From Eledone cirrhosa (lineage: Eukaryota), in contig OZ024740.1 in assembly GCA_964016885.1 (NCBI GenBank), positions 154,132,001-154,196,000 on the forward strand: DNA of 64,000 nt, written 5' to 3'. Shown one piece after another: positions 39,301 to 49,609 of the stretch. The notes beneath the pieces were generated by a model. That model saw nothing but the letters and a program-made list of their open reading frames with translations, was not told the DNA's origin and made no database searches. The position numbers and the translations under genes were made by a program. Positions within the stretch are counted from its first letter, which is position 1; the number at the start of each line of letters is the position of its first letter.

Positions 39301-40960
39301 TGTCTATGCGTTCTATCAAGGTTGACCACGCAGATCACTAATTTGTGATGTGAATAGCCAACCATGAGCAATTCTGGACAACTAAATACGTCCCTATCCT
39401 TACTCCTAACCAAAAACCTATCTAGGTACGATCTAGATTGACCACTGCGGTTTGCCCAGGTCCAGGTTGGCACAGTTGGAAAATCTAGTCGAAATCTATC
39501 GACCAGGTCGAATCGATTGAGTAACCCTTGAGGCTGCTACACCCCCCTCTATCGGGACATGCCCCTGCATAGTCCCAACGCGCATCTAGGATTCCATTCC
39601 AGTCCCCCACTAAAAGCAGGGAACGCGACGTTCCTAGAAAAGTCTCCAGACGCTGGAAGAAGTCGGCTCTTTCAGCCCCGAAGGGGGCATAAAGACCGAC
39701 CAGTCTGAAAGCCCCGCCTTCACCGCCTCCGACGTCCAGCACCAGTAATCGACCCCCCGGGTCCGAGTGAACAATCTGTACGTCGAGAGCCAGACGTTTA
39801 TCCAGCAGTACGGCAACCCCACCCCCGCCTCCGGGTTGACTGAGAGATGTGTGCATCTCAAAGTCATCGAAGGCGGGAGCCAGCTGTCGCACGCTGCTGA
39901 TCCGACTCTCGCAAACAACCATCACATCTATACTTCGTGACCTGAGGTCATTTAGAAGCTTTGCTTGCTTCCAAGCTGAGCCCAGGCCACGCGCATTCAA
40001 ACAACCAACTTTCAATTGATCTATTTTGGTGTTGAAAGTGAAGAAAGAAAAGCACCTACCTCTCCGGGTTGTATATTTTCCATGGGGTCGGATGTGTTGG
40101 GTGGAGGGATGTTTTGTGGTGGTGTAGGGGTATCCGAGTGTGGTGGGGTTGGGGTATTTGGAGTTGTGTCAGGGAGAGGGGAGGTTATGGGGAAATCTTT
40201 CAAGAGGACGCGATTTAACGGTTTTAAACAGGGGGGGGGGGGGGCTCACGTCCTGTTTAAATTGTTCTTTTAAGGAACGATAAAGGTCCAGAGGGACCTT
40301 TATCATTTTTAAATGGGTGAAGTTCTCTGTTGAGATAAAGTTTGGACCTTCGGTCTGCAGCAAAGGGCTATTGTTTATTAATTTAAACAGTTTTTTTGTT
40401 TTCTTTATTTATATATGTGTATTGTAAAGTCTTTTTTTGTGATGCTGTCAATGTTTCGAAGGGGGGAGGCGCAGATTTATTTTTGTTTGTCGAGGGTGGG
40501 GTGTTTTTGATTGGAGTTGGTGTTTGTGTGTGGGTTATTTGTTGTTGTGGTGTGCTGGGTGTGTGCTTTCGTTTTTTTCTTTTAACTTGTCTGAAGGCTT
40601 CTCCTCATTCTTCTTCTGAAGTTGGGGGAAACTCTTCAGCGCTAGGTGGGAGGGACGTGGTGTCTGGTTGTTTGTTTTTTTTGCCTCAGCTACCCGCTCT
40701 CCTTCAGTTTGTTTAGTGGGCGTGTCATCGTTACCTGTGGTAATGGCTTCCATTACCACTAGCGTAGAGACAATTGCAAGATTTTTAGGATGAAAGATTT
40801 CACCCCAAAAGGGGTGAAATAAATTAACCCTAATGTCCGAAGACCCAGGCAAGGGGGTTAATTAACACAATAATGCAAGAATACAGACAAACACTTACTG
40901 TTAACACGTAATATCTCCAATATTCGCGGAGCCGATGTGAAGCACGTCTATGCCATCCGG
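36378..40960 (-). mobile_element. L1/Tx1-clade LINE copy C (5' end intact, about 1.1-kb ORF1 deletion)
   Basis: 5' ATAGACGTG..GCTCCG motif shared with copy D; APE, RT and CPRC..ETVAH; GATA repeats on both sides. Confidence 0.92.
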
Positions 40961-42619: not shown

Positions 42620-43670
42620 TCTTACTCCAACCCATCCTATAGAGGGCTCTATGTCTACTACACGGCACTCTCCCATTATCCTTTATATCTACAACCACCA
42701 AATTCTCCCCCTCTCTATATATAACATATAAAACTCTCCCAATCCCCCTCTTTATATCAAACATCTCTAAACTCTTCCTCTCCCCATCTATACCACACTC
42801 ACTCTTAAGCGTTCTCTATATATCCATCACAAACTCCCCTCTCTATATCTTTAACGATACTGATTCTACCAAACCCATTCTCTATGTTTAGCAATATTTA
42901 TCTCTCCCAACCCCCTCATTATATCTACAATACAACAATCTCTCTCATTCCCTCTCATTCTACCCATCACTAACAAATTCTCACCCTCTCTATATCTATC
43001 AATGCATGTCTCTATCAATCCTCTCACGCTATCAATACCACCAAACTCTCCCCCTTGTATATCTCCCACACGGAACTCTCTTCTAATCCCCCTTTCTATA
43101 TCAATAAACACCAACCTCTACCCCTCTCTATATCTATTACACGGAACTCTCTCCCAACGCCCCTGTCTATATCAATTCCCACCAAACTCTCTTCCTCTCT
43201 ATATCTACCATACAACACTCTCTCTCATTCCCTCTCACTCAATCCTTCACTATCAAAGTCTTCCCCTCTCTATATCTACTACACGGAACTCTCTGCCAAT
43301 CCCCTTCTCTATATCAATAACCATCAATCTCTCCCCTTCTCTATATCTAATATACAAGGCCCTCTCCCAATCCCACTCACTATATCAATTACCACTAAAC
43401 TATCCCCCTCTATATATCTACTATATAACACTCTCTCATTCCCTCTAACTCTGACCATCACTACCAAACCCTCCCCCTCTCTAAATCTATCAATGCCTAC
43501 CTCTATCTATCCGCTCACTCTATTCATTACCAACAAATTCTCCCACTCTCTATGTCTGCTACACGTAACTCTCTTCCAATACCCCTCTCTATATCAATTT
43601 ACACCAAACTCTCTCCCTCTCTATATCTACAACATAGAACTCTCTTCCAATACCCTTCTCTATATCAATA
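42620..43670. repeat. Degenerate C/T-rich satellite, resuming at 49328-49460
   Basis: Recurrent ACCAAACTCTCCCC.CTCT.TATATCTA.TACACGGAACTCTCT.CCAATCCC..CTCTATATCAAT; interrupted by Tx1 copy D. Confidence 0.8.
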
Positions 43671-43869
43671 CCACTTGATATAGACGTGAATTACTTTGCT
43701 CCGTACTTTTACGGATTATTGTCAAAAAAACTGTGAGTTTATTGCTCAATTTAATAACATTGTTTAGTTTAACCCCTTGCCTGGGCCGTCAGACGTTGAG
43801 TCAACTAATTTACGCCCCTTTCTGGGGCGAAATTTTCATTTTCATCTCAAAACTGTAGACTTGGTGGCA

Positions 43870-45653
43870 ATGGATGCCATTTCCACCTCACACACTGTCG
43901 TGAGTGCCACGCCCACTAAGAGAAGTAGTGGAGGGAAGGTAGGAGTACAAAGCTTGCAGCCTTCCCCCCTCGCATTATCGAAAAACGTTAAAAATATTGA
44001 AACCACGAAACCAAACCCGGTAAATAATACCAGCACCAACAACAAGAACAATGACAATAATACCACAACCAACAACTGCAACAATAGTAATACCAAGGAA
44101 AACATGAACAATATTACCAACAGTGACAGCAACAAAAAAGACAACACCAAAACAACATTCGCACAGACTGTAAAAAAAAACGAACTATACACGCCAATAG
44201 ACATAAAAAATGCTAAACAACTATGACAAGACGCAAAACAATTCGTGACTTTTGGCGAAAACGGTGCTTTTAGCATCAATTCTCCACAGGAATTACGTAG
44301 AGAGGCTGTCCTGAAAACTGTTGTTTTCAGGACAATATCGAACGAAACAAGAAAACCAGCTCAATTATCACAAAATGAAATTGCACTGGTTCTAAAAGAT
44401 GCAATGAAGGACTTAACCTTCATACACAAAGGTAAACTGTTTGGTAGCATTTCGGTGCTAATGAACAACCAGTCAACAGCTCAAAAGTACTCGGTATCAC
44501 CCATTGTGTCCCCCCGCTTCACCTTTTTCCCCACATACAGGGGGAAAAGGACACAAAGAATAAAAATAATGAGTATCACACCAAATATAAATATTTGGTG
44601 GATACTATGTGGAATCTTTAACTTTGACGAAGACAAGATAATTTCAATAGGAAAGTCCTCCGGAGGTGTATTTGGTGGGACCACCGTAGAAGTTCTGGTG
44701 CAAATGGGCCCAGAACGAATAGCGAATATCCCACAACGCGTGCCTCTGGACGGGCTAACTTATATAAACATTTCAGTGGAGGGAAGGTGGCCGTCATGTT
44801 ACCACTGTTTAAGTAGGGGTCACCTGAGGGCTGCCTGTCCTCAATTAACGAGTAAAAAAAAAGCTCTTCTGCCAACCCCGAACACAACAACACAACCACC
44901 ACCACCACCACCACAACAACAACAACCACAATAACACGGAAAAATAAGAACACAAAACACTGTTCCATCCAACCCCTCCCCACCTAAAACAAATACAAAA
45001 GCAACCACAACAAAACCCCAAAATATACCCCTCCCCAACAACACAGAAGAGGACTCCGTATCAACGTCACCCAGTGACGACGAGGGAGAACCCTTTCAAC
45101 AGGTGAAAAGGAAAAAAAAAGGCACCACATTAACACAAATGCCACAAACACACAACCACCAGCACAAACATCACAAATAAAAAAAACCACCCCTCCCCAA
45201 AACATAACACGTACTACAAAACGCAAACACGCACAAGAACAACAAACAAAAACAAACACAACACAACAAAAACTCTATACATACATTAACAAGAACAATA
45301 AAACGTTGATGAAAGCGATAGAAAATAACCCTTCGGTGGAAACCGAAGGGATCACTTTCACCTACGCAGCGAACAAACCGCACCTAATGATGATTAGGGT
45401 CCCAACGGAAACCTATGTAACTTTGAAAAAGAGCCATCCAATGCATGTGGGGACCAACTGCACCAAACCACATAACAGCGTCCTATTGAGATGTTTCCCC
45501 ACCCCCACACCAGACACCCACACCCCACCAAACACCCTAATCCTACCGCACACTGATGTCCTCACCCCACCACAAACCACCACCCCACCAAACAACCCTT
45601 CCAACACCTCCATGGAAATTGTGCAGCCTGGTCCTCATGAGACGAAGAGGTAA
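43870..45653 (+). pseudogene. Tx1 ORF1 (gag-like CCHC knuckle), interrupted by stops at about 44224 and 44932
   Basis: MDAIST start aligns with MEAITT in copy C; CYHCLSRGHLRAAC; ends ...QPGPHETKR*, like copies A and B. Confidence 0.8.
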
Positions 45654-45695
45654 GTAACTTCCTTTCCTCTTCGTTTTTAACTCTTCAGCACCAAC

Positions 45696-48600
45696 ATGGC
45701 CAATATAAGAGTTGGATGTGTGAATGCAAGCGGCTTGGGGATGTCCTGGAAACAGGGCAAACTCTTAAATGACCTCAGGTCGCACAGAGTGGATGTAATG
45801 GTTATTTGCGAATCCAGGATCAGCAGCGAGCGCCAACTGGCCCCCATCTTCGACGACTTTGAGATCTACGCATGTCTCTGTCAGCCGAGGGGTGGGGTGG
45901 GGTTGTCGTTCTGCTGCGAAAATACCTGGGTCTTGCCACACAGAAGGTACACCTCAAACCGGAGGGTCGACTGGTGGTTTTAGACGTCGGCAGTGGTGAA
46001 GGTGGAGCTTTCAGGCTGGTGGCAGCGTATGTCCCATCTCGGACACCGCGACCGGACTTCTTCCGACGCCAGGAGAATTTCCTGGGAACGTCTCTCTCCT
46101 TGCTTTTAGTGGGGGACTGGAATGGTATCCTGGATGCACGTTGGGACTATGTAGGGGCATGTCCCGATAGAGGGGGGTGTAACAGCCTCAAACGATTAAT
46201 CGGCCGATTTGATGTGGCCGATAGATATCGACTAGATTTTCCGACTGTGCCACGGTGGACGTGGACTAATCGCAGCGGAAATCTAGGTCGTACCTAGATA
46301 GGTTCCTAGTTAGAAATAAGGATAGGGACATATTAAGCTGTCCACGAATGTTCATGGTTGACTATTCGGATCACAAGTTGGTGACCGGAGTGGTCAAACT
46401 TGATAGAACTCATAGACAGGGACCCGGTTACTGGAAGCTAAACTTGTCTTTACCGACAAACAAAGCTTACAGTAAGCGGATTAGCACACTAGTTAAGCAG
46501 CGTTTGACGGGGGAAATTGTCAACAACAGGTGGTGGGGCTCTCTCAAGAGAGAAATTAGAATAGAATCGATAGGTTTTAGTCGGGAATTAGCATCAGATA
46601 GGAATAGAACTGAAAGAGAATTAACAAATAGAGTAGAAGAGGCGATTAGGAGTGGCAACGTGGCCGGCGTGCTGGCGTCAAGAACGACCCTAGACGAGTT
46701 CTTTGATGCGAAGCACGAGGGCTGCGTTGTCAGGAGTAAAATACGTGCTCTGGGTAACGAGGGAGCCAAAGCTGTTTGCTGGGCCCGAGTGACAGAGGCA
46801 AAAAGTGGAAACAAGTCCACGATTTGGTCTTTGAAGGACCAGGATGGACGCGTGATCCTTGAACCTGAGCGGATGGGCGCGGCCTTTCAACGGCGCTTTG
46901 CACGACTGTTCGGGAGGGGCGGCGGGCCGGGTGGGGCCATGGATTTCGGTCCATACCTCGACGGTCTGGCGCGGCTCTCGGACGGGGAGGCGAAGTCCTG
47001 CGAGAGGCCGATTTCAGCCGCTGAAATAGGGGAAGCGCTGAGCCAATGCGGCAAACGAAAATCTCCGGGTCTCGATGGTCTACCATACGAACTTTATGTA
47101 GCGATGCCGGGCTTGTTCTCCGGTCTCCTCGAGGCGGTCTACTGCAACTGGCAACAGAACGGGAGAATTCCCAGTTCTGTGACCAAGGGCGTAGTCACGC
47201 TGGTGAGGAAGGATGAGAACAAGGGGGATGACATAGATAACTTCAGGCCCATAACTCTGTTAAACACAGAGTTAAAGATTTTGGCCAAGGTGTTAGCAAA
47301 GAGGTTCGCGCTTGTCGTCGGGAACCTGGTAGGAGAAGCGCAGACATGCGCAACCTGTCCAGGTCCATACACGACAACCTCCACCTCATACGATACATCG
47401 TAGAGAGGGTAGGGAACGAACCCGGTTTTGGTGGGGCCCTGATCAACTTGGATCAATCGAATGCGTTTGATAGGTTTGACCATCGGTACCTGGATGCGGT
47501 GCTCGCGGCGGCAGGCTTCGGGCCCGTTTTCAGGGGCTGGATTGCTGCAATACACAGCAGCAACACCTGCTCGAGGGTCAAGGTGAACGGCTCCCTCTCG
47601 GAGCCGTTCCAAATCACGCGATCCATTCGACAGGGATGCCCTCTCTCCTTCCTCCTGTATGTGCTGGTTCTCGAGCCACTACTGCGGAAGCTGGAGCTGT
47701 TGCAGGGCATCCCCTTGGAACCGGGATTGCGGAAAGCGGTGTCGGCCTACGCCGATGACGTGACAGTAATGGTGTCGTGCGCCTCGGAAATCGGGCAGAT
47801 CGGCACCTTACTGGAGGAAAATGAAAGGTTCACAGGAGCCAAGCTGAACCGGGACAAGTCCGTCGGTTTGCAACTCGGGACGTGGAGGGGCAAAACGATG
47901 CCCTCCGACGGCATCGTCGGACGCTGGACGGAGTGACCGGTGAAGCTGCTCGGGGTCTGGTTCGGACCGGACCTCCAGGTGGAGAAAAACTGGGACGAGG
48001 TAACGGGCAAGGTCTTTGCACTCGCCCAGAAGTGGGCCGAGTGCAAACTATCCCTGAAAGGTCGAGCGGAGGTGGCGAACGCTTCTATAGCGTCCGTCAT
48101 CTACTACCACTTCACCGTCGTGCCTTGCCCAGAGAAAACACTCGCCAAAATGGAGCGCGCGCTCTTCCAAGTTCTTTGGAAGAAGCTGGCTCCTTTGGTG
48201 AGAAGATCCATCTGCTGTCAACACCCTTCGAACGGAGGGCTGGGGATGCCGTGGCTGACGATGCGTAGACACGCATTAAGGCTACGGCACCTCCAGGTAT
48301 TCCTCACCGGTCAGCCGGTGTGGGCCCTGTTTGTAAGGCGAGCCTTTCCGAGACTCGTCTCACTCACCGAGCTGCAATCCTGGGTCAAGCAAAGACCGAG
48401 AAAAGTGGGCGACTGGCACATTGAATGTGCCGAGTCGCTCACGGCCCTCTGGCAAGCGGATCCGGCAATCAGTGGAGACTCAACCTCAACATTCTATAGA
48501 GGGTTGATGCGCAGTAAGTGCGACGACGCTCTCGGAGAGGCTCTGGGCATAGAGGAAGATGAGCTGGCCAGTCTGTTCGGTAGGACGTTTGGCCCGGGAC

Positions 48601-49088
48601 CGATGGACAACTTCCAAAAGTCCCTGGCTTGGCAATGTTACCGAGGAGCTCTACCCGTTCGGGACAAGCTCTGTCCAAGATGCGTGCGTGACGAGGAAAC
48701 CGTCGCACACGCATTCGTACACTGCCCGGGCGTTGCTGACCTGTGGGGCTATGTGGAACGACTACTGTCGCGGGTGGGACCAATCGGCTTGACCACCGAG
48801 AACATTGTCACGATCAAACCGCCTCCCTCTTTCAAAAACGAAGGAGAGGTGGTTTTCCTCTGTGTGATAGCCATGGCGAAAGAAGTTGTATGGTGGACAA
48901 GGTTGAAAGGGCTGAGGTCAGACACCTTTCTCTCCGGCCAACAACTGGTCTTTTTTTTCAAGTACCACTTTAGAAGAAGGATCAGAATGGAGAGAGAGGT
49001 GCTCTACCCCAGCAAGTTTTATGAAAGATGGGTGAAAGTAGCGAGAATGGCCCGAGTGAATGGGCCTTCTCTCTATATCAGCCTGTAG
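45696..49088 (+). pseudogene. Tx1 ORF2: APE endonuclease, RT, C-terminal Cys/His finger (about 3 frameshifts, 1 stop)
   Basis: CVNASG, VGDWN, SDHK, YWKLN, KSPGLDGL, NFRPITLLN, RQGCPLS, YADD, KLLGVWF, GGLG, CPRC...ETVAHAFVHC. Confidence 0.9.
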
Positions 49089-49609
49089 GTGAGAGAGGAG
49101 AAGAATGAGAAGAGGAAGGAAGCACCCGCTGTTTGTGCTCCTGAAGAGGAGGGTTGCACATTTTTTCGGGGGTGTGTGCGACCCATGTCAACGCCCCTCC
49201 CTATTGAGGACATCGATTGTTAAATTTAATTTGTTATATGTTTTTTACACGTCTTTTTAAATGTATGTAAACTCCCCCCTTTGTATTTGTCCCAATCTTT
49301 GATGCCCTGGTGGCAAATAAATAGAAATATATATCAATTAACACCAAACTCTCCCCTTCACTATATCTATCAATACCTACCTCTATCTATCCCCTCACTC
49401 TATTCATTACCACCAAACTCTCCCCTCTCTATATCTATCTCTCCCATCTACCTCTACATAACATGTACATACATTGTTGCGGATATACAAATAAATGTGT
49501 GTTCTGATATATATTTGGGATAAAAAAATATTTATTAGGGGGGTCTATGGCCCACCTGGCCGCCAGTTCCACCTTCCCTTATATATAAGGAACATTAAAT
49601 TTAAAAAAA

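What the first reader, a model, noticed from the sequence alone, without database searches (positions are those of the whole stretch)
43680..43740. Positionally conserved 5'UTR splice donor in Tx1, suggesting a leader exon spliced to ORF2
Seen: in the two copies with intact 5' ends, a GTRAGT hexamer begins exactly 53 nt after the start of the terminal ATAGACGTG motif. In D it is GTGAGT at 43733; in C (- strand) it is GTAAGT at 40898. The intervening sequence is otherwise poorly alignable. Inference: a leader exon of about 60 nt joined to the acceptor at 45688 would excise all of ORF1 and leave CACCAACATGG as the first start context. This would be a subgenomic ORF2 mRNA analogous to the spliced pol mRNA of foamy viruses. 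Only two copies support the observation.
Basis: partly seen in the sequence, partly recalled or inferred. Interest (0 to 1): 0.72.

Follow-up and report, generated by a model that had tools for sequence, protein, structure and literature searches.

The report
Conserved splice donor in LINE leader
A large family of jumping genes keeps a splice-start signal near its very beginning even where the neighbouring sequence has diverged; it likely serves to recruit the cell's U1 splicing factor so that the full-length RNA gets made, rather than to cut out the first gene as first proposed, but no RNA data were available.

Summary
The motif is real and not chance. GTRRGT is kept in 10 of 10 leader types related to copies D and C, whose flanks are only 33-40% alike, and a donor is present in 57 of 57 sampled copies whose leader reaches that position. 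The leader-to-ORF2 splice is not supported as a family mechanism. 79 of 95 sampled copies have no AG between the ORF1-end donor motif and the ORF2 start, and copy C lacks both that AG and the ORF2 ATG. The pyrimidine tract read as an acceptor is predicted to pair with the 3'UTR, lineage by lineage. No spliced copy was found: 104 of 104 D leaders read are unspliced. The offset is not fixed (49-60 nt; 20-24 nt in other leader types). One young lineage has no leader donor and almost no poly(A) signals in ORF1. Best reading (0.5): a promoter-proximal U1-binding site behind a DPE-like motif that protects the unspliced transcript. Main rival (0.3): a short Penelope-like 5'UTR intron. The scan noted this donor before on other DNA of this genome. 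No RNA run was listed, so splicing is untested.

The parts
42696..43674 (+). 71-nt tandem repeat into which copy D is inserted; its last ~15 nt are the 5' target-site duplication
   Evidence: most of the 30 D-type copies have the same flank
43675..49327 (+). Copy D, full-length Tx1-like LINE with broken reading frames
43682..43688 (+). AGACGTG, DPE-like internal promoter motif; if it lies at +28 (recalled DPE position) transcription would start near 43655 (inferred)
   Evidence: matches RGACGTGY of Drosophila LINEs and Penelope (PMC2377424 passages)
43733..43738 (+). GTGAGT leader donor motif (SD1), followed by a U-rich stretch
   Evidence: 101 of 104 D leaders GTGAGT
43770..43805 (+). First conserved 5'UTR block (predicted hairpin 1); contains a branch-point-like TTAAC and a CAG ending at 43792 (60-nt intron option)
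43813..43829 (+). Second 5'UTR hairpin (CGCCCC...GGGGCG)
43856..43858 (+). TAG 11 nt before the ORF1 ATG (126-nt intron option)
   Evidence: YAG within 20 nt of the ATG in 27 of 31 D/C-like leaders with a located ATG
43870..45653 (+). ORF1 (broken in this copy); CX2CX4HX4C knuckle in intact relatives; three A[AT]TAAA signals at 44559, 45176, 45297
45650..45655 (+). Second donor motif AG|GTAAGT overlapping the ORF1 stop (SD2)
   Evidence: 85 of 95 copies AG|GTRRGT
45656..45695 (+). Pyrimidine-rich spacer with the lineage-restricted CAG (45686-45688); predicted 5' arm of a long-range helix
45696..49088 (+). ORF2 (APE endonuclease, RT, zinc finger in intact relatives), broken in this copy
49088..49133 (+). 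Purine-rich 3'UTR head; predicted 3' arm of the helix (-36 kcal/mol with the spacer)
49316..49344 (+). Terminal AATAAA and 3' target-site duplication (49330-49344)
40943..40951 (-). Copy C ATAGACGTG motif
40893..40898 (-). Copy C leader donor GTAAGT
40751..40761 (-). Copy C TAG (140-nt intron option) and ORF1 ATG at 40753
40021..40059 (-). Copy C junction: GTAGGT donor, no AG before the ORF2 start position, ATA in place of ATG, ORF1 frame read through to a TAG overlapping it

Best explanation
The hexamer is a conserved 5' splice-site motif in the leader of a target-specific L1/Tx1-type LINE, and it likely works mainly as a U1 snRNP landing site just behind an internal promoter, which would keep RNA polymerase II going through the A-rich ORF1 while the copied RNA stays unspliced. 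Shown: the motif, its conservation pattern, its place behind a DPE-like motif and before two hairpins, its absence from one young lineage, and the lack of spliced copies. Inferred: the start site about 27 nt upstream of AGACG, U1 binding, and protection from early termination. Any splicing from it would most likely go to a nearby 5'UTR AG, not to ORF2.
For: Only +1G, +2T, +5G, +6T are invariant across 10 leader types; +3 and +4 vary among purines; the exon side is free. The motif is kept at a different distance in three further leader types. No single acceptor is shared: YAG at about 60 nt in 15 of 32 and near the ORF1 ATG in 27 of 31 D/C-like leaders, none near the ATG in K2, K3 and Ia leaders. 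No intron-less copy: 104 of 104 D leaders read, of 137 found, are unspliced (95% upper bound 2.8%); genome-wide gap patterns gave no spliced copy among 1, 14 and 0 hits, with simulated sensitivity 10 of 13, 18 of 32 and 7 of 32. The donor-less lineage has 0 poly(A) hexamers in leader plus ORF1 in 4 of 5 copies and 1 in the fifth, against about 3 expected from shuffles; donor-bearing lineages have 1-9; 26 of 26 further readable copies of it lack the donor. A promoter-proximal 5' splice site blocks Restrictor independently of splicing in human cells (PMC12211998 passages). The foamy virus major donor is needed for Gag translation from genomic RNA (PMC5035957 passage).
Against: No direct test of U1 binding or transcription. 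The poly(A)-signal contrast rests on one lineage (P 0.02-0.045 per copy, copies not independent), and 8 of its 26 further copies have one hexamer. ORF2 has mostly 0-1 such signals in donor-bearing lineages, yet a second donor is kept in front of it. Type I leaders have a well-formed 67-69-nt GT...TGTAG segment, which looks like a real intron. The exon side of the D donor is weak (ACT|GT). The donor-less lineage is young and abundant (40 hits at 98-100% identity), so the motif is dispensable in at least one context.
Confidence: 0.5

Rival explanations
1. It is the donor of a real short 5'UTR intron (67-69 nt in type I leaders; about 60 or 115-147 nt in D/C-like leaders), spliced on the ORF1 message, possibly together with removal of ORF2 from the second donor, while only unspliced RNA is copied. 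Not exclusive of the best explanation.
For: Type Ia and Ig leaders both end the segment in T-rich TGTAG (AG found in 11 of 13 Ig copies). YAG within 20 nt of the ORF1 ATG in 27 of 31 D/C-like leaders. ORF2 ends in TAG in 82 of 84 copies, followed by GT in most. Penelope keeps a 75-nt intron 46 nt after its start although most transcripts are spliced (PMC2377424 passages).
Against: A singly spliced RNA would still encode both proteins and should be copied in cis, yet no intron-less copy was found; human L1 leaves about 2% spliced copies (PMC5860796 passage). No acceptor common to all D/C-like leaders. No ORF1-to-3'UTR copy (simulated sensitivity 23 of 57; not expected without ORF2 in cis).
Confidence: 0.3
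2. One reading: the leader exon is joined to the AG before ORF2, giving a subgenomic ORF2 mRNA as the purpose of the donor.
For: In the D lineage the anatomy works: CAG at -7 in 55 of 55 readable junctions, 12 of 14 pyrimidines before it, no ATG in the leader. Precedents: human SpORF2 (PMC2896524 passages), foamy virus pol mRNA (PMC5035957 passages).
Against: 53 of 57 donor-bearing copies lack that AG; 79 of 95 junctions have none; copy C lacks it and the ATG. The tract is predicted to pair with the 3'UTR. No leader-ORF2 copy among 10 hits of a pattern that caught 46 of 55 simulated D cases; that pattern could not see C-type or type I leaders.
Confidence: 0.07
3. The hexamer is kept at the DNA level as part of a transcription-factor site of the internal promoter and only resembles a donor.
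For: The human L1 5'UTR donor lies in a RUNX3 site, which the authors propose as the reason it is kept (PMC5860796 passages). It lies in the promoter region here too.
Against: The same GTRRGT recurs at the ORF1 stop, far from the promoter, across TAA, TAG and TGA stops and in a different reading register in family C. Its variation follows the donor consensus (consensus recalled).
Confidence: 0.1
4. Chance or neutral inheritance of a hexamer.
For: GTRAGT occurs 67 times on the two strands of the window; the leaders share an ancestor; within D the copies are about 96% identical, so retention there says little.
Against: Hexamer identity 0.89 against 0.33-0.40 in ungapped flanks (0.57-0.60 gapped) over 10 leader types, with the donor-defining columns the only invariant ones.
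Confidence: 0.03

Closest known systems
Penelope (Drosophila virilis) 5'UTR intron (PMC2377424, passages read)
   Same: RGACGTGY promoter motif followed by a conserved donor; short 5'UTR segment kept in genomic copies.
   Different: Penelope has a GIY-YIG endonuclease and proven splicing. This element is an APE-type two-ORF LINE, splicing is unseen, and D/C-like leaders have no single acceptor.
Human L1 5'UTR donor at +98, SpIREs and SpORF2 (PMC5860796, PMC2896524, passages read)
   Different: Human L1 leaves spliced integrated copies (about 2% of full-length); none was found here. The acceptor before ORF2 is missing from most lineages here, and a second donor overlaps the ORF1 stop.
Foamy virus major splice donor and spliced pol mRNA (PMC5035957, passages read)
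   Same: 5'-proximal donor; there it also supports expression from the unspliced genomic RNA.
   Different: Retrovirus with LTRs and a functional acceptor upstream of pol; no conserved equivalent here.
Promoter-proximal 5' splice sites that block Restrictor (PMC12211998, passages read)
   Same: A donor in the first transcribed stretch can act without splicing.
   Different: Shown in human cells on screened sequences; not tested here, and not shown for this animal or for a LINE in the passages seen.
Tx1-clade target-specific LINEs: Tx1, Kibi, Koshi, crocodilian Tx1 (PMC4494074, passages read); 'L1-Tx1' families of Octopus vulgaris (PMC13282606, passages read)
   Same: Two ORFs, APE-RT ORF2 closest to L1, insertion into microsatellites or another repeat.
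   Different: Targets here are (TATC)n, (ATT)n and a 71-nt repeat. No splice signals are mentioned in the passages seen. No tree with Tx1 references was built.

Membership tests
L1/Tx1-type non-LTR retrotransposon | ORF2 with APE endonuclease and RT | tested here: met
   Pfam Exo_endo_phos and RVT_1 above cut-off in two intact 1145-aa ORF2s; zf-RVT just below cut-off
L1/Tx1-type non-LTR retrotransposon | ORF2 nearer to L1 than to R2 | tested here: met
   human L1 ORF2p E 5e-50, R2 proteins E 2e-17
Tx1 clade | RT groups with named Tx1 families in a tree | not tested
Tx1 clade | target-sequence preference | tested here: met
   flanks are (TATC)n-like, a 71-nt repeat or (ATT)n depending on lineage
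Tx1 clade | ORF1 with CCHC knuckle (feature recalled) | tested here: met
   CX2CX4HX4C seen by eye in two intact ORF1s; no Pfam hit
Subgenomic ORF2/pol mRNA (foamy virus, SpORF2) | 5'-proximal donor | tested here: met
Subgenomic ORF2/pol mRNA (foamy virus, SpORF2) | acceptor upstream of ORF2 kept with the donor | tested here: not met
   4 of 57 donor-bearing copies; 14 of 89 with a strong YAG after the last upstream ATG
Subgenomic ORF2/pol mRNA (foamy virus, SpORF2) | spliced RNA detected | not testable with these tools
   no RNA holder listed
SpIRE-forming L1 donor | integrated spliced copies | tested here: not met
Penelope-type retained 5'UTR intron | DPE-like motif, donor and acceptor of a short intron | tested here: inconclusive
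   met in type I leaders (67-69 nt); several unshared AG options in D/C-like leaders
Penelope-type retained 5'UTR intron | segment kept in transposed copies | tested here: met
Penelope-like elements | GIY-YIG endonuclease | tested here: not met
   APE endonuclease found instead
U1-protective promoter-proximal 5' splice site | loss of full-length RNA on mutation, rescued by matched U1 | not testable with these tools
   needs a reporter assay

The most novel reading that the evidence does not exclude
These LINEs run a retrovirus-like RNA programme: a leader donor, an acceptor before the ORF1 ATG, a donor at the ORF1 stop and a long-range helix around ORF2 switch between a fully spliced ORF1-only message and a U1-protected unspliced genomic RNA, and only the unspliced RNA is copied. 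The donor-less lineage, cleared of poly(A) signals in ORF1, is a natural knock-out of the leader module.
Probability: 0.22. Interest if true: 0.8.

Novelty: new variant of a known kind. Interest (0 to 1): 0.5.

Why it matters
LINEs copy themselves through RNA and should lose splice signals, yet this family keeps a donor behind its promoter across many diverged leaders without leaving spliced copies. If U1 binding is the reason, it shows how an intron-less transposon can pass the host check that ends transcripts lacking an early 5' splice site. The donor-bearing and donor-less lineages make that directly testable with reporters.

Tried and rejected
RNA evidence: no RNA holder listed; this says nothing about expression. 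The three listed runs are contigs of one sample of unrecorded kind whose depth rises toward the 3' end as genomic copies would. No listed joint starts at 43732 (only the 15 best-supported joints are shown each time, 15 and 277 more hidden). One joint 45649-45731 with GT..AG ends in one contig of one run has an unknown middle and ends at a base that differs in most copies; not taken as splicing. Ten hits of the leader-ORF2 pattern were ORF1 sequence with a chance AGACGT or a deletion. The single type I hit keeps GT and AG and is a deletion. Of 14 hits, 13 start at the second AGACGT inside hairpin 1 and one is unrelated (matched text; 4 read in full). Ten internal deletions among 69 D copies do not have GT..AG ends. 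Local folding did not show a consistent open or closed state of the leader donor (paired probability 0.37-0.85). A first duplex test caught only 3 lineages and was not significant (p 0.16); it was redone with better end finding. A 39-nt ORF1-ORF2 fusion intron in D was set aside: spacers are 25-52 nt and mostly lack an AG. Literature searches listed no paper on a conserved leader donor in Tx1-type LINEs; the library lacks most subscription papers and Repbase, Kojima and Fujiwara 2004 was not read, and no supplements were opened.

Full report
Setting. The window is G000:C1:154132001-154196000 of a 3.0-Gb genome. The window holds one full-length LINE on the + strand (copy D, 43675-49327) and several related copies on the - strand. 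Intact relatives encode a 1145-aa ORF2 with APE endonuclease and RT, closest to human L1 ORF2p among solved structures, and an ORF1 with a CCHC knuckle. Lineages insert into (TATC)n, (ATT)n or a 71-nt repeat, as Tx1-clade elements prefer targets (PMC4494074 passages). Tx1 membership was not tested by a tree. At least 5,495 ORF2 starts match one exact pattern; I fetched 95 of the first 100 listed, all from the first 42 Mb of C1, leaving out five near-identical tandem neighbours.

Observation. Both hexamers and both offsets are as written. D-type copies have GTRAGT at +53 in 27 of 30 best hits and C-type in 29 of 30. The motif is not terminal and the two 5'UTRs are homologous. The 95-copy sample gave 14 leader types. 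Ten are D/C-like (type II): donor 49-60 nt after the A of AGACG and 36-39 nt before a shared hairpin block. Three (type I) have the donor 20-24 nt after a related motif. One (type III) has none. Of 64 copies with a leader hit, 57 of 57 that reach the donor position in types I and II carry GTRRG. Across the ten type II leaders only +1G, +2T, +5G and +6T are invariant, with hexamer identity 0.89 against 0.33 and 0.40 in ungapped flanks, or 0.57 and 0.60 gapped. This is the pattern of a 5' splice site (consensus recalled). AGACGTG matches the RGACGTGY promoter element of Drosophila LINEs and Penelope (PMC2377424 passages).

The proposed acceptor. The CAG before the ORF2 ATG is fixed in the D family (55 of 55 readable of 69 fetched) but is confined to one ORF2 lineage. 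Of 95 junctions 79 have no AG in the spacer, 13 have it at -7, 1 at -5 and 2 at -1; only 4 of 57 donor-bearing copies have it. Upstream alternatives are weak: 14 of 89 copies have a YAG with 11 or more pyrimidines in 14 after the last upstream ATG. Over 9 lineages own-pair energies beat swapped pairs after centring (permutation p 1e-5), although the own pair is the best in only 4 of 9 rows; 0-7 of 200 shuffles and 0-15 of about 339 ORF2 windows do as well. Lineages are related, so p is optimistic.

Spliced copies. Exact patterns found 134 D leaders followed by GT and 3 followed by another base; those 3 are unspliced point or small-indel variants. I read 104 of the 134: all unspliced (93 by rule, 11 by eye). 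Gap patterns for leader-ORF2, the type I 67-69-nt segment, leader-ORF1 start, the 60-nt option and ORF1-3'UTR gave 10, 1, 14, 0 and 0 hits, none spliced. On simulated spliced forms they caught 46 of 55, 10 of 13, 18 of 32, 7 of 32 and 23 of 57. Rough denominators from the sample are about 1,850 type II and 750 type Ig leaders. Human L1 leaves about 2% spliced copies (PMC5860796 passage). For RNAs lacking ORF1 or ORF2 this test is weak; for a short 5'UTR intron it is informative.

What else is there. A second donor, AG|GTRRGT, overlaps the ORF1 stop in 85 of 95 copies across TAA, TAG and TGA stops and stays in place in family C where ORF1 reads through it. ORF2 ends in TAG in 82 of 84 copies, mostly followed by GT, which can be read as an acceptor or as a third donor-like GTAGGT. 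Nearby acceptor options for the leader donor exist but differ: 67-69 nt in type I, about 60 nt in 15 of 32 type II leaders, and a YAG within 20 nt of the ORF1 ATG in 27 of 31. The type III lineage is young (40 hits at 98-100%), lacks the donor in 5 of 5 and 26 of 26 readable copies (4 of 30 unreadable), and has 0 A[AT]TAAA in leader plus ORF1 in 4 of 5 copies against about 3 expected; donor-bearing lineages have 1-9. I predicted this contrast before counting, but it is one lineage, and ORF2 has few such signals despite its donor.

Mechanism. Most likely (0.5) the donor is kept to bind U1 early in transcription, as promoter-proximal 5' splice sites block Restrictor independently of splicing (PMC12211998 passages), with the copied RNA unspliced. 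Next (0.3) is a real short 5'UTR intron on an ORF1 message, as in Penelope, where the intron is spliced in most transcripts yet kept in copies. A DNA-level promoter site (0.1), the leader-ORF2 mRNA as the purpose (0.07) and chance (0.03) follow. A minor leader-ORF2 product in the D lineage alone remains possible, as human L1 makes SpORF2 (PMC2896524 passages). U1 binding, the start site and all splicing are inferred; no RNA run was listed.

Novelty. Conserved 5' donors are known in human L1, Penelope and foamy virus. Searches listed no paper on one in Tx1-type LINEs; a recent Octopus repeat annotation has no occurrence of 'splic' in its main text (PMC13282606). All papers were seen as search passages only; no supplements. 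The scan's own notes already describe the leader donor, the ORF1-stop donor and the helix on other DNA of this genome; they are leads, not support.

Noticed in passing
window 40021-40059 (-); L246-L248, L348-L357: Family C lacks the ORF2 ATG (ATA or ACA); most copies have a short deletion near the ORF1 end so ORF1 reads through the donor and spacer to a TAG that overlaps the ORF2 start position. Non-autonomous family, non-AUG start or frameshift.
   Followed up: partly
L164, L167, L184, L236, L237, L249-L278: Young (ATT)n-targeting lineage with both 5'UTR hairpins but no leader donor and almost no poly(A) signals in ORF1.
   Followed up: partly
window 45650-45695 with 49088-49133: Predicted long-range helix around ORF2; in several lineages the ORF1-stop donor has a matching partner in the 3'UTR.
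   Followed up: yes
window 49083-49094: ORF2 stop is TAG in 82 of 84 copies and overlaps a donor-like GTAGGT in most lineages, about 230 nt before the terminal AATAAA.
   Followed up: partly
window 43660-43683: The first bases of copy D are the reverse complement of the target just upstream (predicted hairpin); similar pairing in several other leaders.
   Followed up: no
L137, L162, L165, L185, L190, L192, L218: The same leader types occur on different ORF2 lineages, pointing to recombination between families.
   Followed up: no
window 45612-45630: A conserved ATG in strong context (MEIVQP) lies 59-89 nt before the ORF2 start in nearly all lineages; could be a short upstream frame for ORF2 reinitiation.
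   Followed up: no
G000:C1:4225330-4255759 (L099-L104): Six near-identical ORF2 starts of the F family spaced about 5.7-7.1 kb apart, a tandem array.
   Followed up: no
L340: D copy that keeps the leader to about 43770 and jumps to about 49216, a very short internally deleted copy that retains the donor.
   Followed up: no
L061, L062, L305, L329, L332: D copies with 0.9-1.7-kb deletions removing the ORF1-ORF2 junction; ends are not GT..AG.
   Followed up: partly
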